From the NCBI GenBank assembly GCA_000004985.1, contig GG738859.1: a stretch of DNA of 64,000 nt; one strand, given 5' to 3'. The notes beneath the pieces are model-generated. The model saw only the letters and a list, made by a program, of their open reading frames with translations. It ran no database searches and was not told the origin of the DNA. Source of the stretch: Naegleria gruberi. Its lineage: Eukaryota. Position numbers and translations under genes: made by a program. Shown piece by piece: positions 4,400-39,415 of this stretch; position 1 is the stretch's first letter; each line of letters opens with the position of its first letter.

Positions 4400-7300
4400 T
4401 TAAAGTTCTTCTTCTTCGTCCATTGGGGTATTCTTGAAAGCGTTGGCATAAGCATAGAGGCCAATCAATTTCTTGCCTATCGTACCCATCTCACAAATAG
4501 TACACAATTCACCATCATATCTTGGTAAATAAGCAGCTCCACAATATGAGCAAGCAATCTTGTCACTTCCTTGATAAATTGGAGTGTGTGAAATATTACA
4601 AACAACAAATGGATTTCTATCGTCATAATTCAATTCAATCTTGTCGGTAGGTTTGCTTTCCTTTTGTTGGGCCACATAGGCTGCTTGCTTTTGGATCTTT
4701 TCTGGAGGTCCCATCTTAAGCAATCTATTAGCAAATGTAGCTGCTGTTACAAAGTTTTCAAGTTTGAAGCAAATAGCCATGGCAGAATTCAAACCTAACA
4801 TGATGTGATTATTTCTCAATTTACATCTAGTGAAATAAGCTGCAAGTTCGGCTGCTCTCTTTGAATCAGTGGTCATAATATCCTTTCTGTCTAATTCCAT
4901 TCTGAAAGCACTGACGTATTCACAACAAGTAGATAAAGTTTCCTTGAATTCTCTTTCATCCTTCTTTGATAAGATTGGAAGGAACAATAATTGTCTCATA
5001 ATTTCACGTAACATGTCCAAACCATTCTTGATTGTATTTTGATTCGATAAGGCATTGAGAGCGTCCTTCAACTTTAATTGCAACTCAGAAAGTGTTGGCA
5101 CTGCAAGTTTAGGAAGGGTATTCTCTCTGGATCTCTCATTTTCTGATTTACCAGCTTGAAGTGCTAATGGAATACTTGGTTGACATGATGGAGAAGGCAT
5201 TAAAAGATTAGAACCAGCATAAATAGAGAGGAATAATTCTTTGAGAGGAGCAAAATTCTTGATACCAACAGCCTTTTGGAGAATTTCAATGGCAGAATCA
5301 AATGAACCAGCTGCAATGTGATTACCTGGGAATTGAGAATTGACTGGCCACATATCCAAAACGTTTCTTCCAGCATTTGGAGGAACAAAATTGCTTGATT
5401 GAGATGTGGAAATTTGAGCATCAGCAGGAATATCAATGAGATCATAGTCATCAACATTGATTTGATCCTCACCCATTTCATCCAAGTCTGATGGTGGAGG
5501 AACAGATTTCTTGCTTGTTGTGGCTTGTTCCATTCCTGGAATTTCAATACTATCACCGAATTGGTCAAATTCAAGTTCATCAATTTCACCCAAAGATTGA
5601 CCAACATCACCATAATCAATTTCTTGAGTATGTAAAAGAGGCCAGTTACCACCAGCATTGATTGGTACAGGAGGAAGGAAGAGGGAAGGCTTAAAGTTGA
5701 ATTCTGGCATCTTGAAATCTTCTGAGAGGGATTTTTTGACTTCTTCAGCAAGAGCATCCAAACCGTGATTCTTGGCAGTCATATAAGCCAATGCACTTTG
5801 GCCAACACTTTGAAGAACCTTAACTCTTTCTTCAACGTCACCAAGGAAGAGAGCATTGTGGAATCTGGACATTACATCATTTCTGCTGTTGGCAATCTTG
5901 AGCATCAATTTGAGACTTTCTTGATTACCAGTAACACTGTGCAAGAAGGAGAGTCTTTCGACATTCTTTGTTCTTTGATAAGCCTTTTCGACAGCAGAAA
6001 CATCACCTTGGTTCAAAGCTTCCAATCCCAAACTGTTCCAACATTCCTTCTTGTCCAACTTTTGGGCAACTTCAGAGGCAGTCTTGATATCACCACATTC
6101 AAGGGCAAGATTGAATTTGGTACTTTCATCTTCAACAAATTTGAGAGCAATTTCAGGATAACCCTTTTGTTGGAGGTAAGCAATAATGGAATCTCCAAGA
6201 ATCTTGGCTTCACCAATAATCTTCTTAATGTCACCAGTTCTTCCTTGAGATAAGGCAAGTTTGAATCTGTATTCAGTTGCATCAATAGTGATAACCTTGA
6301 CAGTACCTTCTCTATCAATAATTGTAACATTATTATTTTCAATATGGGCAATATAAATTGGGAGATCCAAAGTCTTGATTGTACCAAAATCACCTGATGC
6401 CAAACAATACTTCATGTGATTCAATGTAGTATAAATGAAAACACCATCCTTATCGAAGGCACCACTCTTAATACGAATGGTTTCAACAGTTGTGCAGAAA
6501 GGCTGCAAGTTACTATCACATACAACAACCAAGTGTTTTCCGAGTAAAGCAACTTTAGAGTTATCATCAGACCAAACAACAAACTTGATACCAGCTGAAG
6601 CATGGCTGGAAACAATCTTTTGTTGTTCCAAATCATACAAATGAACTCTATCATCAGTTGTAAAGATCAATCTACCAGAAACTGCTGGGAAAATTCTCTT
6701 AATTGGTCCGACAGTAATTGGAAGTTCCTTAGATCTGTCAGATTGTGTACTGTGAATGAAAATCTTTCTATCCTTTGGATCTAAAGTAGCAAACTTTTGT
6801 AAACCAACAAAAGCAGCAAAGAGGGCCTTTCCTTTTCTAATTGGGTTTCTAATTGGAACTTCATCAGTTGGTCCCTTTTTAATTTCAAACAATTCATAAG
6901 AACCACCATCATGATCTGATGTGAGAATTCCATAAGTGTTGGTTGGGTCAATACAAAGATTTCTTGTTGATCCTGACCATGATTTTCTCAAAACAGCAGC
7001 TGGAGCATCCTTGCCACCTTTAACAACTCTCAAATTCTTTTCCTTCATATACATGAGACAATTCTTGGAAGCAGTGAAAGCTGGTCTTTCTCTTTCCAAT
7101 TTGAAAACAATAAGACCACCATCATGACCAGCAGCAATAAGATTTTGAGTTGGGTGAACATCCAAAACCCAGAATCTTTCATATTCTCTCTTATAACTTC
7201 TAATGAATTGTGATTTTCCAATATCATAAAATCGGAGAGTTTTATCCTCACTGGCAGAAATAATCATATCCTTCTTTTCATGGAAAACTGCACAAGAAAC

Positions 7301-32170: not shown

Positions 32171-33019
32171 CTATTTATTCGATATAACTTCCAATTTGAT
32201 AAACCATCCTCCATCTACAGCTTGTTTTTCATCAGCAGCTCCAACAGGACATGTCCAACCACAATATCCACCCCCAGTCAATGAAATAATTTGGTCATCC
32301 TTTGAGAAATTCCAAGTTCCATAACTACAATAACCGTTATGTAAAAAGCTAACACTGAATTTGAAAGGAGTACCACTCAGATCACACATTGCTCTTCCGT
32401 CATCGACTGAACCCCCTTCACAACCAAAACAAGTTGCATACGAAACTTCCTTTGTTTTCCAATTATGATGATTACATACGCCAGTTGACTTGGAAAATGT
32501 ATGATCTCCTGTATGAATCATTAAAGTTTCTGGATTAATTCTCAATCGATACCAACGAGTTATAATATCAGCATCATTCCAACTCCAGGGTTTTCTTCTA
32601 GGAACAGTATAGGTTGAGTAATTATTAGTTGGAGAAGGCAAAATTAAATAGTAACAATTCTTGGCTCCTTGATAGAATGTATATGTTCCATAATTTGGTA
32701 TTTCAAATTCTTGATATCTGTACGAACAAGAAACCAAATACCAATTCCAACAAGTCAACTGAAAACTCAAACAAGTCTCCTCATCATTCTCAATAAACCC
32801 AAAAATCTCCCTCAATAAATCATCAGGAATTACAAATGTTTCCATCACTGATTTTTTATATTGTGATTCAACACTTTGGAATAATAAATCATTAATATTG
32901 GAGAGGAATTGGTGGGATGATGAGGTTGTGGACGTTTCATCAGAATGATGATCCTTCTTGTTGTGATGAGAAGAGGAATTTGATGATGAATTTTTAGAGA
33001 AGAGTTTGCGAAGGACCAT
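32171..33019 (-). CDS. F-box-like protein with Cys/Trp-rich C-terminal domain
   Basis: IPDDLLREIFGFI resembles the F-box core. N-terminal S-rich tract. 282 aa. Confidence 0.45.
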   Translation of the reverse strand: MVLRKLFSKNSSSNSSSHHNKKDHHSDETSTTSSSHQFLSNINDLLFQSVESQYKKSVMETFVIPDDLLREIFGFIENDEETCLSFQLTCWNWYLVSCSYRYQEFEIPNYGTYTFYQGAKNCYYLILPSPTNNYSTYTVPRRKPWSWNDADIITRWYRLRINPETLMIHTGDHTFSKSTGVCNHHNWKTKEVSYATCFGCEGGSVDDGRAMCDLSGTPFKFSVSFLHNGYCSYGTWNFSKDDQIISLTGGGYCGWTCPVGAADEKQAVDGGWFIKLEVISNK

Positions 33020-33116
33020 GTTGGGGCAATTTTTTTAAAGTTTTCTTGATGAAACCTTGATGAACTTTATTACAATGAGTGTTCAATCAATCATTTTGAA
33101 TTCTGTTTGACAATAT

Positions 33117-33791
33117 TTAATTAGCGAATTGATCATACTGAGCTCTCACAGCAACCATTTGATCAGGATACAACAATCCAACAAATCCCAAAATACCATA
33201 ATAGGAAGCAGATAAAGCTGCAATAATCAAAGCCATCACTAATGGTTTCTTCAATTTATATCCAAGAGCAATATTCAATCCATAAATAGTATGATACAAT
33301 CCACATGCCAATAAGAATCCAAAGAATCCCAAAGCACCTACCATACCCATTTCCTTCTCAGCCACAAAAGCAATTGAAGCAAATGAAGCATTAAATGAAT
33401 TTTTAAATCTATTACCAAAAATGTGCATTGGAATAAGGAATGAAAGAATATATCCAGTAATACTGTGTAATTTCTTTGATAATGAAGCTGTTGCTGCTTC
33501 GACTTCTGCTGCCTTCTTTTGAGTGAATGAGAGAAGTGAATTGACAAACATGTGAACAGCAAGTGGAGCGAATACGACCAAACCCTCAACAATCATATTT
33601 GGTCTATAAATTCCTCTAGTTGTTTCCAGAACAGAATCATATTTCAATGGAGATAAGGCTGCAGAAATAGTTGTAGCCACGTGTAAGGTTACAAAAACTG
33701 AGAAGGTAATTCCCGACCAACGTTGCAATTGCTTCAACATTTTAGGAGGTGGTGATGGTGGAACGGACATTGACTTGGCGCTTTGAGACAT
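33117..33791 (-). CDS. multipass membrane protein of unknown function
   Basis: 224 aa ORF with 5-6 hydrophobic helices and a Pro-rich N-terminus. Confidence 0.45.
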   Translation of the reverse strand: MSQSAKSMSVPPSPPPKMLKQLQRWSGITFSVFVTLHVATTISAALSPLKYDSVLETTRGIYRPNMIVEGLVVFAPLAVHMFVNSLLSFTQKKAAEVEAATASLSKKLHSITGYILSFLIPMHIFGNRFKNSFNASFASIAFVAEKEMGMVGALGFFGFLLACGLYHTIYGLNIALGYKLKKPLVMALIIAALSASYYGILGFVGLLYPDQMVAVRAQYDQFAN

Positions 33792-34299
33792 TTTTTTTAA
33801 GGGTTTTTGTTGTTGAATGTGTTTGTTGAGTGGATGAGAGTGTTTGGAGAATTTTAAATGCTAATTGGAGTTTTATCAATTTAAATTCTACTGTAAAGAG
33901 GTGTGGGTGTATTAAATGGAGAGGGGTTATGTCAGGTAAATGTTGAAAAGGCCTCAAACACGTGTTTTGAATAGTATATTAAGAGAGTGTTTGCTTAATA
34001 TTGTCCATGAAAGTTCACTTTATGAATTCACAAATTTTTACAATGTTAACCATTTCACAATATCAATGGAAGCCTTATCAAAGTAAAAACTTGAAAAACA
34101 ACCATTTTCCATAACAACATTATTGTTGTAAACTATTTAAATAAATGCAAATAAAATCAAAAAAAAATGCAAACTTCAACTGATAACCCCACACAAATCA
34201 ATCAACTCTCAGAACAATTTCTGTTTGCACTTTCTCTTGAAGAATCCAATCCACATCAAATGTTTTCCATGGTGCTAGCCTAAGAGTGGATGTAGTTGG

Positions 34300-34352
34300 T
34301 GGTGTAGCCGGTAGCCGGTTACAGCCGGATGGTAGTGCGGGTAGTCGGAAGC
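34300..34352. repeat. left subterminal repeat array (GTAGCCGG / CAGCCGG / GTAGTCGG units)
   Basis: ggtgtagccggtagccggttacagccggatggtagtgcgggtagtcgg lies directly inside the left TIR. Confidence 0.5.
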
Positions 34353-34400
34353 TGTTGAATACACCTTCAAAGCCAAAAATTAATAATAAAAGTTCTATTT

Positions 34401-36341
34401 TTAAAATTTAACTTTATGAAAATTCATGAAAAACGAGTATTGGTTGAACATTTCTTTGCCAGCAATATTATGAATCAAACATTTACCAATTATTTGATTT
34501 AGTGCAACATAGCCTGTTGTTACATGAATGTTTGAATCAATTAATCTATATCCAATAATTGGATGAACCGAAGAGAGACACTTTTTGATGTTGGTGAAAT
34601 ATACTTTTTGCTCTTTAACCTCAACAAATTGACCAACAAGTAAGGAACCATCCTTTGCCTTAAATAAAATAAATTCTTTGTTTTGTACAATTGGAATCCA
34701 TTTCTTGTTTTCAGATTGATTTCTTACCCAAGGATAATTGATGTTAATTTGTCTTTGAAGTTTTTCAAAATTCGCTCCTCGTTGTTCTAAATTTTTGTGA
34801 TTGGAAGAGTCATTAAATTGTTTGAAAACTTTGTGTTTCAATTCAAAAAGCAATGCCCAGAAGAACCTGGCATTTCCCCACTTCAAACAATCTTCAAAAA
34901 TATGAGAATTCCAATGAAAATTAGGATTTGTAAAATTACCATTACCATATAGGGAAATGACTTGTTTCCTGAAATTGAAATGTTTCAATTTTGCAATTTC
35001 AATGTTTGAAGGTGAAACCAAATCTTGAATCAAAGAAAGTACGTATTCTACGTGATTTGACCAACATATAATATGTTTCTTCTTCAAACTGAATGAAACA
35101 TCACAGTGATTCTTATTATTAATAAGAAAATCATAGATAATTGGGCAACTAAAAACCACGAATTCCAAAAAATGATCTGCTGAACAATCATTGTAATCTT
35201 TTGCAATCATTTTCAAAGGTTTACCATGATTGTTTGTATACTTGTCCATAACAGACTGAAAATCACTTAAAATGTTGGTGTAATTGAAATATTTGAAAAA
35301 TTTTTTAAGGTGTCTCCTTAAATCACCTTGAATAGAACCATGCATTAATTCAACAGTTGAATTTTCAAAAATATCACAATCCTTAATTTGTAAAAACGGA
35401 CACTTCATTTGAGTATTGTTACTTTGTCGAACTTTTTCTTTTACCTGTTTGGATTTTTTGGACTTGGAATCAATCTGCATATCTTTGATTTGAATATCAG
35501 CGACTGTAATAAACTTGTAGCCATTACATGAGGTACCAATTGATAATTTTTGTTGCATTTCAATTGCTTCAGTAACAGTTCTTAAAGGATAGACTAAAGG
35601 TGTTGAAATGTCATTAGGACATTTACAATAATCTCCTTTTGGGCATTTACATTTAGAACATGTATAGCTTTCAAGAAATAATGATAGCCATCTTTGTACA
35701 GAATCCCAAATCCAAGGACCTATTAGAATTCGAATCTTTTCAATTGAATCAGTGTAAGAGTTATAAACATCAATTGATTTTCCATTAATTTCATTCAACT
35801 CTTCAACTAGTTTTGTTGCTAATTTGAATTGGGAAATATTTGTTTTTGAATTTCCTAGTAATGAAATTGATTCCATATTCGAAGTAAGAAAGCTTCGATT
35901 AAAATTCAATAAGGTGAAATATAATCCTGCTGTTTTGTCTGTACCTGTTCTATGTTTTCTAAATTCATCAATATAATACATAATGACAATTGGTGTTTCG
36001 TCTGGTGAACATTTCTTTTTCAATTCTTGAAATCCTTTTGATGCGTATGGTTCATAATTGAATAATGGTTCTTTTGTTAAATCCTCTGGCTTATTACCAT
36101 TATGTATCTTTTTTGCAATAAACGGATCTGCATATAAATATTTGATACAATTTACAACACCATAGTATACATATTGGTCCTGTTCAGTATCATTTTCATC
36201 AATTATTGGTTGTTGAGTTTTGAAATATTTACATCTGGTTTGAATTTGATCGTATGAAAGACATTCTTGACCACATAATTTCAGTATTTCAGTTGTATAA
36301 TTGTATTGTTCTTTTGTAAACTGTTTGGATTTCAACATCAT
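34401..36341 (-). CDS. transposase-like protein with CxC zinc-chelating motif (CSKCKCPKGDYCKCPND); possible KDZ/EnSpm-like transposase
   Basis: 646 aa ORF inside the TIR-bounded element. The CxC cluster resembles zinc-chelating modules associated with KDZ transposases. The family assignment is an inference. Confidence 0.45.
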   Translation of the reverse strand: MMLKSKQFTKEQYNYTTEILKLCGQECLSYDQIQTRCKYFKTQQPIIDENDTEQDQYVYYGVVNCIKYLYADPFIAKKIHNGNKPEDLTKEPLFNYEPYASKGFQELKKKCSPDETPIVIMYYIDEFRKHRTGTDKTAGLYFTLLNFNRSFLTSNMESISLLGNSKTNISQFKLATKLVEELNEINGKSIDVYNSYTDSIEKIRILIGPWIWDSVQRWLSLFLESYTCSKCKCPKGDYCKCPNDISTPLVYPLRTVTEAIEMQQKLSIGTSCNGYKFITVADIQIKDMQIDSKSKKSKQVKEKVRQSNNTQMKCPFLQIKDCDIFENSTVELMHGSIQGDLRRHLKKFFKYFNYTNILSDFQSVMDKYTNNHGKPLKMIAKDYNDCSADHFLEFVVFSCPIIYDFLINNKNHCDVSFSLKKKHIICWSNHVEYVLSLIQDLVSPSNIEIAKLKHFNFRKQVISLYGNGNFTNPNFHWNSHIFEDCLKWGNARFFWALLFELKHKVFKQFNDSSNHKNLEQRGANFEKLQRQININYPWVRNQSENKKWIPIVQNKEFILFKAKDGSLLVGQFVEVKEQKVYFTNIKKCLSSVHPIIGYRLIDSNIHVTTGYVALNQIIGKCLIHNIAGKEMFNQYSFFMNFHKVKF

Positions 36342-36393
36342 GAAACTATGCCATTCTAATTCATTAGCGAATGGAGCAAACTTATTTGAAGGA

Positions 36394-36705
36394 TCAGTGT
36401 TCTTTTGTAATATGTTTCAACAACGTTTCAGATTTGACACAACTATAATCACATAAACAACATCCAAGTTTTTCCTTAGTAAAATTTTTACACTCAGAGT
36501 TTTCACAGTTACATTTAATTTGAATCTTGAATTTTGCACTTGAAATTGGTTGGTAAAATACTGTGTGTAAAGATTTCTTGCAAGAATCACAGCGTCTTTC
36601 AAAATAGATACCTTGTTCCTTGTTATTTTGTAAAGACATTTTTTTTCGTCTAAAAACTGGCTTTCGACTGAAAATTCGAATCAAAAAAAACACAATAAAA
36701 AACAC
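36394..36705 (-). CDS. C2H2-type zinc-finger ORF just upstream of the transposase-like ORF; possibly its 5' exon
   Basis: CDSCKKSLH...CLCDYSCVKSETLLKHITKEH, same strand, 50 bp upstream of the 34401..36341 ORF. Confidence 0.3.
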   Translation of the reverse strand: MFFIVFFLIRIFSRKPVFRRKKMSLQNNKEQGIYFERRCDSCKKSLHTVFYQPISSAKFKIQIKCNCENSECKNFTKEKLGCCLCDYSCVKSETLLKHITKEH

Positions 36706-36711
36706 AATAAA

Positions 36712-37648
36712 TGCCAGGTAAGTAATTCAACATCAACCTTGTAACTTTTCCATCAACTGCCAATTTTACATCATTTCAGCATCATCACCATCAGTAAAAG
36801 TAAGTAGTTTAGCACCATTTATTCAACATAAATTATTCTAATAACAAAGAAGAAGACTAAATTAACCATAACATGTTTACCAGAAGCCACATATGAAAAG
36901 TTGGCTGACTGTTATCCCAAGGCTGCAGTGGGATGGAAGGATACTTAACGAGCGTAAGTAAGCAAATTGTTAGTTATTTATTTGATTTTATATAGACTAA
37001 AAAGAGAAGTTATGCAATGTATTCGAATTTACTGTAAGCGAAAAGGGATTCCCCAAAATGATACTGCCATGAGTTCATGTAAAGATTGTCTGCAATTAAC
37101 TTTTGGTGAAACATTGTTCAGAAAACATGTTAATGGATTGTCAACGGATACATATAAATACGTGCAAAGTATTGTAAGTGAAGTTTATCCTTAAATTATT
37201 TATTAATTATTTTCCAACAATTAATTAGAGCTATTGTTATGTCAGTAAGATATTCAGCAATCTGTGGAGTTCTTTTAAAAGAAAGAGTCTAATAGAATTA
37301 AAGAAAAAAGAGAAGCCAAAAAGAAAGAAGAATTCCAATGTAGAAGTTTCTAATATAGAAGGGGTTCCATCCTCAATTCAAGCAACAGATATTCAACCTT
37401 CTACCTCTTCACCAACAAGAGAACATGTCAGAGCCAACAATGGTCAATTCTCTTCATTGCAGAGCTATGTTGCAGAAGATGAACAAGTTGTTTTTTTAAC
37501 ACTTGTTAAAGATTGGATCAAAAAACCTGACACAAGAGCAACACAACCTTCAGCAGACGCAATTAATTTGCTTGATATGGAATCAGATGGTGCAGATCTT
37601 TATTCAGATAATGGTCAATCAGACTCAGAAGAAGCACAACAATTGTAA
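36712..37648 (+). CDS. small multi-exon gene of uncertain structure inside the element (ATG at 36712, micro-exons, terminal exon about 37457..37648)
   Basis: ATGCCAG followed by GTAAGT, then several short open segments bounded by GTAAGT donors and AG acceptors. Exon model not resolved. Confidence 0.25.
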
Positions 37649-37739
37649 ATAAATAAATCAGTTTTACTCAAATTATGAAAATTGTAATGGTCAACAGAGT
37701 AAATTAAGGGAAACTTTCAGTCTAATACCAACACACTAA

Positions 37740-37990
37740 AAGCCGCATAGAAACTGAATGTTCACCGAATAGTCACTGAATGTTTACCATATAATAACCG
37801 AATGGTTACTGAATATTTATTGAATAGTTACCCACCAATTTCATTCCTTTACCCAACAATCAACCGACTACCAACCAACTAACACTGAACTAAAACGGTC
37901 AGGCGATTATGGGCTGATATTCGATTAATTTCTGGAAAATCGTTCAGTTATTTTCGGAAACAAGTTGGGGGAAATTAGGGTTGTAGTAGG
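37740..37990. repeat. right subterminal repeat array (YYGAATRGTYAC units plus CCGACTACC)
   Basis: ctgaatgttcaccgaatagtcactgaatgtttacc...ccgaatggttactgaatatttattgaatagttacc, with ccgactacc in inverted orientation relative to the left array. Confidence 0.45.
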
Positions 37991-38077
37991 GTTGTGGATG
38001 GGGTTTAGACGGAACATAGCCAACTAAAAACCAACTATAACACTGTCTATTACCCAAGTACTCCACTCTTAGGAGAG

Positions 38078-39181
38078 TTGGCCACTGTTAAGAATTATCC
38101 ACAAGCATTCAACATCATTTCGGAATGTTATCGAAATCAAGTGGGTGTTCAATATAATGAAGATAAGGTTTTCGAATATGCCATGATGGGATCAGAAAGG
38201 GGTGATTTGATTTCCACATTCTATGTTGGAAATTGTTATAATTTTGGAGTGGGAAGGGAGGTTAATGTAGAACTAGCTATGGAGTGGTATGAAAAGGCAG
38301 CTAATGCTGGTCATGGAATGTCATGCTTTCTTGTGGCAGATAAATGTCATCAGGAAAAGGATTTTGATAATGCAATGAAATGGTATTCGAAAGGAGCAGA
38401 ATTGGGATTGGATTTGTGTTTTCATAGATTAGGATACATGATTGAAAGAGGAGAAGGTTGTGAACGTGATCTAGGAAAGGCATTTGAATGGTTTCATAAA
38501 GCTGCCAATTGTGGAATACCTGTATCCATGTACAGTTTGGGAGTTTGTTACGAAAGAGGAATTGGATGTGAGATTAATGAAAAGAAATCAATGGAGTGGT
38601 ATGTAAAGGCTGCCAGGAAGGGTAATCAACAAGCCAATGCCAAAGTAACATTGAGATGTACAACTGGAATTCGAGGAGATTATGATTTCAAACTTGCATA
38701 CGAATTGTTTTTATTGGATGCAACAGTTAAGAAGACTTTCATTGAATTCTGCTCTTGTTTTGACATGCCCATCTCCAAATTCTACATTGCACAGGAGTTA
38801 TATTATGAAAATGCAAGAAATGATTCTTACAATTCTTTGGAAATTATTGAAATGCTAGAATCAACTCAACAATTATATCAAAGCCAGAATTTGCTAGGGC
38901 TTATTTATTTGGAAGGAAAGATTGTAGAGCAGAATTTTGATTGTGCTTTCAAATTAATTGAGAAAGCAGCAGAATCAAAGAAGGGAAAATGTCTCTTTGA
39001 TTTGGCCATCATGTACCTGTATGGTTATGGTTGTAAAAAGGATTCACTCGAAGCCAGATATCGATTAAAACAATTGGCAATAGAAGAATATCAACCAGCT
39101 ATTGATTTACTTGAAAGGAGTTTCCACTCTGATTTATTGAAGAATCGGCAATATTCTGATTTGATTATTGTTATGAAATGA
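38078..39181 (+). CDS. Sel1-like repeat (SLR/TPR-like) protein
   Basis: Repeated motifs of the form G.G...D...A..WY.KAA..G. Confidence 0.7.
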   Translation: MATVKNYPQAFNIISECYRNQVGVQYNEDKVFEYAMMGSERGDLISTFYVGNCYNFGVGREVNVELAMEWYEKAANAGHGMSCFLVADKCHQEKDFDNAMKWYSKGAELGLDLCFHRLGYMIERGEGCERDLGKAFEWFHKAANCGIPVSMYSLGVCYERGIGCEINEKKSMEWYVKAARKGNQQANAKVTLRCTTGIRGDYDFKLAYELFLLDATVKKTFIEFCSCFDMPISKFYIAQELYYENARNDSYNSLEIIEMLESTQQLYQSQNLLGLIYLEGKIVEQNFDCAFKLIEKAAESKKGKCLFDLAIMYLYGYGCKKDSLEARYRLKQLAIEEYQPAIDLLERSFHSDLLKNRQYSDLIIVMK

Positions 39182-39415
39182 TACTTTTTTTTATTAAGGA
39201 ATTAGTTATATATTCAACATGGTGTTTGTTTCATAACTGAAATATTTTCAAGGTATTTAGAAAGATAACAATTTTACAATTTATTGAAAACTTCTTACAG
39301 AACTGGTTTCATTACTGTAATGACATTTATCACATTTCTGAGAAATAGGGCTTATGCAATAAATCCGATTTAATCTGCAATTCAATAGCATTCATCATCC
39401 ATCATTAAAAAAAAT

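What the first reader, a model, noticed from the sequence alone, without database searches (positions are those of the whole stretch)
34279..38073. About 3.8 kb TIR-bounded DNA-transposon-like element with a CxC-motif transposase-like ORF
A 20 bp terminal inverted repeat (left cctaagagtggatgtagttgg; right reverse complement cctaagagtggagtacttgg; 12/12 plus 7/8 matches) brackets the region. The region contains arrays of short subterminal repeats at both ends, with ccgactacc present in inverted orientation. It also contains a 646 aa ORF with a CSKCKCPKGDYCKCPND CxC cluster, an upstream C2H2 finger ORF and a small multi-exon ORF. This layout is what CACTA/EnSpm- or KDZ-type DNA transposons look like. 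The ORF does not resemble common Tc1, hAT or piggyBac transposases by eye. The Sel1-repeat gene starts 5 bp outside the right TIR.
Basis: partly seen in the sequence, partly recalled or inferred. Interest (0 to 1): 0.8.

Follow-up and report, generated by a model that had tools for sequence, protein, structure and literature searches.

The report
RAG1-like cut-and-paste transposon in Naegleria
The 3.8 kb segment is a real DNA transposon of the EnSpm/CACTA-Plavaka-Transib (RAG1-like) group that has jumped into a Sel1-repeat gene of Naegleria gruberi; it is a well-supported but fairly ordinary mobile element.

The parts
34277..34278 (.). Left copy of the 2-bp target-site duplication 'AG'
   Evidence: The empty-site contig L013 has a single AG here. 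The two L013-window alignments overlap by exactly these 2 nt.
34279..34290 (+). Left terminal inverted repeat CCTAAGAGTGGA
   Evidence: Exact inverted 12-mer, found only twice in the window. It is 9/12 identical to the N. lovaniensis TIR CCTAGGAGCAGA. The insertion boundary is fixed by L013.
34291..34350 (+). Left subterminal repeat cluster (TAGTTGG, TAGCCGG x2, CAGCCGG, TAGTCGG)
   Evidence: Four TAGYYGG motifs on the + strand at 34293-34342. The 9-mer TACAGCCGG is shared with the subterminal repeats of the N. lovaniensis element.
34401..36341 (-). Transposase catalytic core ORF, 646 aa (NAEGRDRAFT_65790): D125, D213, C228xxC231, H334, H476xxxH480, E500, plus a C-terminal beta-barrel (about residues 557-632)
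36394..36639 (-). N-terminal zinc-finger ORF (81 aa, MSLQNNK...HITKEH), now out of frame with the core
   Evidence: Homologous to residues 1-84 of Willaertia magna P0008 (36% identity, E 2e-8), where finger and core form one ORF. The intact 870-aa ORF in N. lovaniensis also has N-terminal fingers.
36397..36398 (-). Internal deletion and frameshift junction (about 130-aa linker lost)
   Evidence: The two tblastn HSPs abut here in different frames. The paralogue P0116 carries the linker, and identity to the window starts at TDPSNKF.
36711..37648 (+). Second, divergently transcribed gene. Proposed 5 exons (36711-36717, 36780-36799, 36884-36957, 36996-37173, 37229-37648), 232 aa, basic middle, acidic C-terminus
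   Evidence: Exon model from GTAAG donors and AG acceptors gives an open 232-codon CDS. A small divergent multi-piece gene sits at the same position in five related contigs/elements (L001, the P0078 contig, the N. lovaniensis element L004/L005, L009, L011) and probably a sixth (L008, whose ends were not found). No sequence similarity to them and no Pfam hit. The model is not an annotated protein.
37743..38061 (-). Right subterminal repeat region (three 22-nt CCGAATAGTCACTGAATGTT-like units; CCAACTA/CCGACTA units)
   Evidence: Direct-repeat families D2 and D3. Four TAGYYGG motifs on the - strand at 37870-38037.
38062..38073 (-). Right terminal inverted repeat (TCCACTCTTAGG on the + strand)
38074..38075 (.). 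Right copy of the 2-bp target-site duplication 'AG'
34167..34278 (+). 5' part of the interrupted host Sel1-repeat gene (codons 1-37 plus 1 nt)
   Evidence: Removing the element and one AG gives a continuous 405-aa ORF. The uninterrupted 413-aa allele P0118 is encoded on L013.
38076..39181 (+). 3' part of the interrupted Sel1-repeat gene (the annotated model NAEGRDRAFT_65792 starts at an internal Met, 331 aa)
   Evidence: Pfam Sel1 1.7e-42. P0089 covers only 82% of the reconstructed protein.

Best explanation
Window 34279-38073 is one copy of a class II (cut-and-paste) DNA transposon of Naegleria. It is inserted in the coding sequence of a Sel1-repeat gene.

Family features:
- 12-bp terminal inverted repeats beginning 5'-CCTARG.
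- Oriented subterminal repeats (TA[CG]NNCGG-like).
- A 2-bp target-site duplication.
- Two divergent genes.

Gene 1 is the transposase. It has N-terminal C2H2-type zinc fingers (inferred to recognise the ends). Its RAG1/Transib/EnSpm-type RNase-H-like core carries the catalytic residues D125, D213 and E500 and a zinc site C228/C231/H476/H480 (numbering of the 646-aa ORF). It ends in a small Sm/Tudor-like beta-barrel. Gene 2 is a small intron-containing gene of unknown role. By analogy with TnpA of En/Spm it may be an accessory end-binding or regulatory protein; this is a low-confidence inference.

Shown: the insertion, the TSD, the family, the motif conservation and the fold. Inferred: the transposase binds the ends and excises the element (probably by the nick-and-hairpin chemistry of RAG/Transib), then integrates it with a 2-bp stagger.

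The window copy has lost the roughly 130-aa linker between the fingers and the core, and the two parts are frameshifted. It probably cannot make full-length transposase and would depend on a full-length copy such as the NAEGRDRAFT_51042 locus. Phylogenetically it belongs to the CMC/CMCT assemblage (EnSpm/CACTA, Mirage, Chapaev, Transib, Plavaka), as a divergent lineage.
For: Insertion and target-site duplication:
- L013 (ENA ERZ929261 k127_123340) aligns to window 32835-34278 and 38074-39313 with a 2-nt overlap 'AG'. It encodes the uninterrupted Sel1 protein P0118.
- 2-bp TSDs are seen in 6/6 N. lovaniensis copies (AT, AA, TT, TT, AA, TT), in L011 (TT) and in L009 (AA).

Family and mobility:
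- Six N. lovaniensis copies of 4.39 kb at 99.6-99.9% identity lie in six different gene neighbourhoods, with termini CCTAGGAGCAGA.
- L001 has CCTAGG at both ends.
- Three more N. gruberi proteins are about 99.2% identical and sit on other scaffolds.
- The subterminal motif is in inverted orientation in the window and in N. lovaniensis, with a shared TACAGCCGG.

Transposase:
- 76 phmmer hits.
- Conservation among relatives covering each column: D125 26/26, D213 25/27, C228 and C231 27/27, H476 and H480 28/28, E500 27/27.
- The C(2)C plus H(3-4)H signature is the one given for EnSpm, Mirage, Chapaev, Transib, Plavaka and RAG1 in PMC12730594.
- Relative P0030 hits Pfam Plavaka at 3.4e-10. P0053, P0067 and P0069 hit Transposase_21 at 2e-11 to 5e-13, with DUF4218.
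- AF2 pLDDT 87.8, pTM 0.87.

Defective copy: abutting HSPs in two frames, while the linker is present in P0116.
Against: - The 646-aa ORF itself hits no Pfam family at E<0.1, and only 2 of 31 relatives hit Plavaka. Assignment to CMC rests on transitive homology, motifs and a predicted fold.
- The termini are CCTARG, not the CACTA / CA..TG usual in the group.
- L001 flanks (TA / AT) do not show a TSD.
- The catalytic roles of D125, D213 and E500 come from alignment, not from inspected coordinates or experiment.
- The gene 2 model has no transcript support, is not an annotated protein, and shows no similarity between elements.
- The frameshift could in principle be an assembly error. The copy still has an intact 646-codon core ORF.
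- No copy of this element's terminus was found in JGI metagenome contigs.
Confidence: 0.93

Rival explanations
1. It is specifically a member of the Plavaka lineage rather than an EnSpm-like or separate CMCT lineage.
For: Relatives P0030 and P0079 pass the Pfam Plavaka gathering score (3.4e-10). PlavakaA also makes 2-bp TSDs (PMC12730594).
Against: The query and 29 of 31 relatives do not hit Plavaka. Other distant hits carry Transposase_21/DUF4218 instead. Plavaka termini are TGT..ACA or CATCA..TGATG, whereas here they are CCTARG. Plavaka has been described from fungi.
Confidence: 0.2
2. The window copy is still autonomous. The zinc-finger peptide and the 646-aa core would be made separately, or the frameshift would be an assembly error or bypassed during translation.
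For: Both ORFs are intact. The core is 99.2% identical to the other copies. The catalytic residues are all present. The TIRs are perfect over 12 bp.
Against: In Willaertia, N. lovaniensis and the N. gruberi paralogue P0116 the fingers, linker and core are one ORF. The window lacks about 130 codons, including the second finger and a basic KKRK-like stretch, and the two parts are in different frames.
Confidence: 0.2
3. It is a KDZ (Kyakuja/Dileera/Zisupton) transposon, as the cysteine cluster suggested.
For: The cysteine-rich stretch CSKCKCPKGDYCKCPND resembles the CxC clusters associated with KDZ elements.
Against: No KDZ or CxC Pfam family was hit by the query or by 31 relatives. The TSD is 2 bp, against 7-8 bp for Kyakuja/Zisupton/Dileera. 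The fold is RAG1-like and the CxxC is the CMC/Transib zinc motif.
Confidence: 0.02
4. It is a chance inverted repeat around ordinary orphan host genes, or a domesticated transposase gene that is no longer mobile.
For: The 12-bp inverted repeat is not above chance on its own. There is no Pfam hit, and the first word-indexed search found only the protein itself.
Against: An empty-site allele exists with an exact 2-bp TSD. Near-identical copies lie on other scaffolds. A homologous element with the same termini is present in six places in N. lovaniensis.
Confidence: 0.01

Closest known systems
EnSpm/CACTA (CMC superfamily; Pfam Transposase_21 / tnp2 + DUF4218)
   Same: [quoted passage not shown]
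- The C-terminal block 'PNFH...H.F...GPP..W..FE.KH' parallels the DUF4218 region.
- Distant relatives of the query carry Transposase_21 and DUF4218.
- Short TSD, oriented subterminal repeats, two genes per element.
- RepeatModeler reported 'CMC-EnSpm' repeats in N. lovaniensis (PMC6125883).
   Different: - Termini are CCTARG, not CACTA.
- The TSD is 2 bp, not the canonical 3 bp.
- The query itself is below Pfam detection.
- The second gene shows no similarity to TnpA.
- The element is compact (3.8-4.4 kb).
Plavaka (fungal CMCT lineage; Pfam PF18759)
   Same: One branch of the family (P0030/P0079) passes the Plavaka model. The TSD is 2 bp, as in PlavakaA. The C(2)C / H(3-4)H signature is the same.
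   Different: Plavaka termini are TGT..ACA or CATCA..TGATG. Most members, including the window ORF, do not match the Plavaka model. The host is a heterolobosean amoeba, not a fungus.
Transib transposase / RAG1 and RAG1-like (ProtoRAG)
   Different: About 10% sequence identity. The TSD is 2 bp, not 5 bp. There is no RSS-like heptamer CACAGTG terminus and no RAG2-like partner. The N-terminus has C2H2 fingers rather than an NBD.
Mirage (CMC lineage with 2-bp TSD)
   Same: 2-bp TSD and membership of the CMC motif group. The Mirage TSD length is from my own knowledge, not tested here. DUF1258, which co-hits with Transposase_21 in distant relatives, is a nematode family.
   Different: No Mirage reference sequence was available, so the relationship is untested.
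KDZ (Kyakuja-Dileera-Zisupton)
   Same: Cysteine-rich motifs and a large transposase with N-terminal zinc-binding modules.
   Different: No sequence or profile match. KDZ TSDs are 7-8 bp. The fold matches RAG1.

Membership tests
Class II TIR (cut-and-paste) transposon | Insertion absent from an otherwise collinear allele (empty site) | tested here: met
   L013 joins window 34278 to 38074 with a single AG.
Class II TIR (cut-and-paste) transposon | Target-site duplication of fixed length | tested here: met
   2 bp in the window (AG), in 6/6 N. lovaniensis copies, in L011 and in L009. L001 is the one exception.
Class II TIR (cut-and-paste) transposon | Terminal inverted repeats conserved in the family | tested here: met
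   Window CCTAAGAGTGGA, N. lovaniensis CCTAGGAGCAGA, L001 CCTAGGAAGGTCAAAAC.
Class II TIR (cut-and-paste) transposon | Multiple dispersed copies | tested here: met
   Four N. gruberi scaffolds carry proteins about 99% identical. Six N. lovaniensis loci. DNA copy number in N. gruberi was not countable with these tools.
CMC / CMCT (EnSpm-Mirage-Chapaev-Transib-Plavaka) | [quoted passage not shown] | tested here: met
   D125, D213, C228xxC231, H476xxxH480 and E500 are conserved in 25-28 of the 26-28 sequences covering each column. The criterion comes from PMC12730594.
CMC / CMCT (EnSpm-Mirage-Chapaev-Transib-Plavaka) | Sequence homology to reference transposase families (Transposase_21, DUF4218, Plavaka) | tested here: inconclusive
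   The query has no Pfam hit. The link is transitive only: phmmer hits P0030 (Plavaka 3.4e-10) and P0053/P0067/P0069 (Transposase_21 at 2e-11 to 5e-13).
CMC / CMCT (EnSpm-Mirage-Chapaev-Transib-Plavaka) | RAG1/Transib-like catalytic fold | tested here: met
   [not shown]
CMC / CMCT (EnSpm-Mirage-Chapaev-Transib-Plavaka) | TSD of 2-5 bp | tested here: met
   2 bp.
CMC / CMCT (EnSpm-Mirage-Chapaev-Transib-Plavaka) | Termini 5'-CA..TG-3' ('in most cases'; CACTA for EnSpm) | tested here: not met
   Termini are CCTAAG..CTTAGG in the window, CCTAGG in N. lovaniensis and L001, CTTAGC in L011 and CTTATG in L009.
Plavaka | Match to Pfam PF18759 above the gathering score | tested here: not met
   Not met for the window ORF. 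Met only by P0030/P0079 among 31 relatives.
Plavaka | Termini TGT..ACA (A) or CATCA..TGATG (B) | tested here: not met
KDZ (Kyakuja/Dileera/Zisupton) | KDZ transposase or CxC Pfam domains | tested here: not met
   None in the query or in 31 relatives.
KDZ (Kyakuja/Dileera/Zisupton) | 7-8 bp TSD | tested here: not met
   2 bp here.
Transib proper | 5-bp TSD and CACNGTG-like termini | tested here: not met
   2-bp TSD and CCTARG termini. The Transib features are from my own knowledge.
Autonomous element | Uninterrupted full-length transposase ORF (fingers + linker + core, about 840-930 aa in relatives) | tested here: not met
   The finger ORF and the core ORF are in different frames and the linker is missing.
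Repbase/Dfam named family | Match to a deposited consensus (e.g. an EnSpm entry for N. gruberi) | not testable with these tools
   No Repbase or Dfam library was available. The only literature hint is 'CMC-EnSpm' in the N. lovaniensis repeat table.

The most novel reading that the evidence does not exclude
The Naegleria/Willaertia elements and their metagenomic relatives form a distinct, so far undescribed lineage of the RAG1/Transib/EnSpm assemblage. Its distinguishing features would be:
- its own terminal signature (5'-CYTARG, often the palindrome CCTAGG) and a 2-bp TSD;
- N-terminal C2H2 fingers, a C-terminal Sm/Tudor-like barrel and a conserved second gene;

Such a lineage would be a useful deep outgroup for reconstructing how the RAG1 architecture arose. 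It is recently active in N. lovaniensis and N. gruberi.
Probability: 0.3. Interest if true: 0.5.

Novelty: new member of a known kind. Interest (0 to 1): 0.3.

Why it matters
- Annotation: it shows that a 'predicted protein' (NAEGRDRAFT_65790) is a transposase and that the neighbouring Sel1 gene model (NAEGRDRAFT_65792) is truncated because a transposon sits in its coding sequence.
- Activity: it documents a young, probably still mobile DNA transposon family in Naegleria. There is a presence/absence polymorphism, copies at about 99% protein identity in N. gruberi, and six copies at 99.6-99.9% in N. lovaniensis. Mobile elements are poorly described in this genus.
- Wider interest: the family is invisible to Pfam yet folds like the RAG1 core. 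That adds a heterolobosean branch to the EnSpm/Transib/RAG1 assemblage. None of this overturns current understanding.

Tried and rejected
- Pfam on the 646-aa ORF: no hit.
- phmmer and profile searches against PDB sequences: nothing meaningful.
- Single-sequence AlphaFold: useless, pLDDT 33.
- Word-indexed homologue search: it returned only the protein itself, both with the single sequence and with a 31-sequence profile. It missed 90%-cluster members that an exact look-up later revealed. My interim idea that the element is single-copy in N. gruberi was therefore wrong and was dropped.
- TIR significance by length: not significant. The other high-scoring inverted pairs in the window are AT-rich chance matches.
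- Generic inverted k-mer sharing between the two ends: not significant.
- Other copies in the 64 kb window: none.
- The look-up of encoding contigs for N. gruberi proteins P0001 and P0077: not on record. The full-length N. gruberi copy could therefore not be read.
- P0078 contig: no DNA available.
- L008 and L012: no clear termini found.
- Metagenome scans for the terminus CCTAAGAGTGGA(N)GTASTTGG and for conserved peptide patterns: no hits. Viral contigs: none (one search failed for lack of conserved columns).
- afdb50 fold library: unavailable.
- Yuan & Wessler 2011: not held.
- Gene 2: no similarity between elements and no Pfam hit.


Full report
**Source and observation**

The window is Naegleria gruberi NEG-M. 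The 646-aa ORF at 34401-36341 (-) is 100% identical to XP_002679140.1 / NAEGRDRAFT_65790, a 'predicted protein' on a 530 kb scaffold.

- CCTAAGAGTGGA occurs at 34279-34290 and, inverted, at 38062-38073. These are the only two occurrences in 64 kb.
- The ORF contains the cysteine-rich stretch, and an upstream C2H2 ORF is present.
- A + strand gene can be assembled from five exons with GTAAG donors and AG acceptors.
- Short repeats lie at both ends.

The inverted repeat by itself is not evidence. The window contains 114 exact 12-mer inverted pairs 0.5-6 kb apart, against about 95 in shuffles, and several AT-rich pairs score as well. A generic k-mer test of the two ends was also not significant.

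What is non-random in the window is the oriented subterminal motif. TAGYYGG occurs 18 times on both strands of the window. Four are on the + strand within 65 bp of the left end, and four on the - strand within 205 bp of the right end.

**Proof that it is an insertion**

Removing 34279-38073 and one 'AG' joins an ATG-initiated reading frame (34167-34278) in phase with the Sel1 ORF. The result is a continuous 405-aa protein.

An exact-cluster look-up then found a 413-aa protein, P0118, in the same 90% cluster as the annotated, N-terminally truncated Sel1 model P0089. P0118 reads straight through the junction (..MFSMMLELATVKNYPQAF..).

Its contig is L013 (ENA ERZ929261, 2,681 bp). It aligns to window 32835-34278 (93.4% overall; 97-99% in coding parts, 75-88% in intergenic parts) and to 38074-39313 (99.2%). 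The two alignments overlap by exactly the dinucleotide AG. This is an empty site with a 2-bp target-site duplication.

**The family**

The word-indexed search saw only the protein itself. Exhaustive phmmer against 1.84 billion representatives found 76 relatives, 33 of them at E<=1e-10. They include N. gruberi paralogues, N. lovaniensis, N. fowleri and Willaertia magna proteins, and 830-930 aa proteins on 3-6 kb metagenomic contigs.

In N. lovaniensis one protein (P0083) is encoded at six loci:
- The six loci share a 4.39 kb unit at 99.6-99.9% identity, in six unrelated gene neighbourhoods.
- The unit is bounded by 5'-CCTAGGAGCAGA...TCTGCTCCTAGG-3'.
- It is flanked by identical dinucleotides in all six cases: AT, AA, TT, TT, AA, TT.

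The window TIR CCTAAGAGTGGA is 9/12 identical to this one. Other relatives behave similarly:
- L001 (23% GC metagenome contig) has CCTAGG only at its two element ends, inside a 16/17 TIR, but without a matching TSD.
- L011 has CTTAGCAGATA termini and a TT duplication.
- L009 has CTTATG/CTTTGG termini and an AA duplication. Its right end was fixed by comparison with L010.

The N. lovaniensis ends carry AATAC[TC]G[TC]CGG repeats in inverted orientation. They share the 9-mer TACAGCCGG with the window's left end.

In N. gruberi itself, three further annotated proteins on other scaffolds are 99.2% identical to the window ORF. The family is therefore multi-copy and young there too.

**The transposase**

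The ORF and 29 of 31 aligned relatives have no significant Pfam match. The alignment shows the following conservation among the sequences that cover each column:

| Residue(s) | Conserved in |
|---|---|
| D125 | 26/26 |
| D213 | 25/27 |
| C228, C231 | 27/27 |
| H334 | 28/28 |
| H476, H480 | 28/28 |
| E500 | 27/27 |

Homology is also transitive. P0030 (E 1.5e-13 to the query) passes Pfam Plavaka at 3.4e-10. P0053, P0067 and P0069 (E 1e-5 to 4e-4 to the query's H(3)H-E region) pass Transposase_21 (tnp2, the CACTA family) and hit DUF4218.

With the 31-sequence alignment, AlphaFold2 gives pLDDT 87.8 and pTM 0.87. Structure searches gave:
- Foldseek: 25 RAG1 chains first (E down to 7.5e-11, about 620 columns), then HzTransib.

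No KDZ or CxC family was hit anywhere, and the TSD is 2 bp rather than 7-8 bp. The KDZ alternative is rejected.

**State of this copy**

Intact relatives have one ORF containing fingers, linker and core. Examples are the 870 aa ORF in N. lovaniensis and the Willaertia P0008 N-terminus.

In the window, Willaertia residues 1-84 align to the finger ORF in one frame and residues 214-381 to the core in another. The two HSPs abut at about 36397/36398, and the 129-aa linker is missing. The N. gruberi paralogue P0116 still has the linker, and its identity to the window begins exactly at TDPSNKF.

The window copy is therefore an internal-deletion, frameshifted derivative and is probably non-autonomous. 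Its 12-bp TIRs and core ORF remain intact.

**Second gene**

A small, divergently transcribed, multi-piece gene lies between one end and the transposase gene in the window. The same layout is seen in L001, the P0078 contig, the N. lovaniensis element, L009 and L011, and probably L008, whose ends were not found.

The products show no detectable similarity to each other and no Pfam domain. My exon model is not an annotated protein. Its role is unknown. An accessory function like TnpA of En/Spm is only an analogy.

**Mechanism**

Shown:
- insertion with a 2-bp duplication;
- conserved termini and oriented subterminal repeats;
- a RAG1-like DDE core with a zinc site;
- N-terminal fingers.

Inferred:
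- the fingers (or the gene 2 product) bind the subterminal repeats;
- the core cleaves at the CCTARG ends and integrates with a 2-bp stagger;
- excision may use the hairpin chemistry of RAG/Transib;
- this copy needs transposase supplied in trans.

**Comparison, novelty and score**

It works like, and by motif, transitive homology and fold belongs to, the CMC/CMCT assemblage. It departs from canonical EnSpm/CACTA in its termini (CCTARG, not CACTA), its 2-bp TSD and its lack of a direct Pfam match. It departs from Plavaka in termini and host.

The N. lovaniensis genome paper already lists 'CMC-EnSpm' repeats from RepeatModeler (38 copies, 69.8 kb; PMC6125883). Elements of this general kind have therefore been seen automatically in the genus. 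I could not check Repbase or Dfam.

I rate it a new member of a known kind, with about a 30% chance that it represents a distinct lineage worth naming. Interest is 0.3: a clean, fully documented transposon insertion and two corrected gene models, but not a surprise to a specialist.

Noticed in passing
window 34167-34278 + 38076-39181: The host Sel1-repeat gene (NAEGRDRAFT_65792) is annotated as 331 aa starting at an internal Met. The transposon splits the real gene at about codon 38. An uninterrupted 413-aa allele exists on ENA contig L013.
   Followed up: yes
window 32835-34278 versus L013 1-1443: The left flank is only 93.4% identical to the empty-site contig (75-88% in the intergenic stretches 32985-33135 and 33885-34185), while the right flank is 99.2% identical. 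The contig comes from a related but not identical Naegleria. The uneven divergence was not explained.
   Followed up: partly
[not shown]
   Followed up: no
L002-L007, 4328-8718 (N. lovaniensis GCA_003324165.2): Six 4.39 kb copies at 99.6-99.9% identity indicate very recent transposition. The annotated 742-aa gene model is truncated, because the ORF is 870 aa from L004:5617 and includes N-terminal zinc fingers. A 187-aa gene on the opposite strand is annotated in only two of the six identical copies.
   Followed up: partly
L001 1-14 and 5380-5476: This 23% GC metagenomic element has CCTAGG termini and a 16/17 TIR, but its flanking dinucleotides (TA / AT) do not form a TSD. It is the only exception among ten ends examined. 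The cause could be mutation or chimeric assembly.
   Followed up: no
L012 about 4590-4708: The contig end downstream of a related transposase gene consists of an 18-nt tandem repeat (GTTTTGTCAAAAGCTTTC-like). No termini could be defined on this contig.
   Followed up: no
window 32171-33019 (-): The neighbouring 282-aa ORF has a weak F-box match and a GON-domain match (Pfam GON 3.6e-5, just above the cut-off). This is an unusual combination and was not pursued.
   Followed up: no
tool behaviour (versus 28, 89): The word-indexed homologue search returned only the query itself. Meanwhile 99%-identical N. gruberi paralogues and 75 other relatives exist in the same collection. Negative results from that tool should not be read as 'orphan'.
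   Followed up: yes
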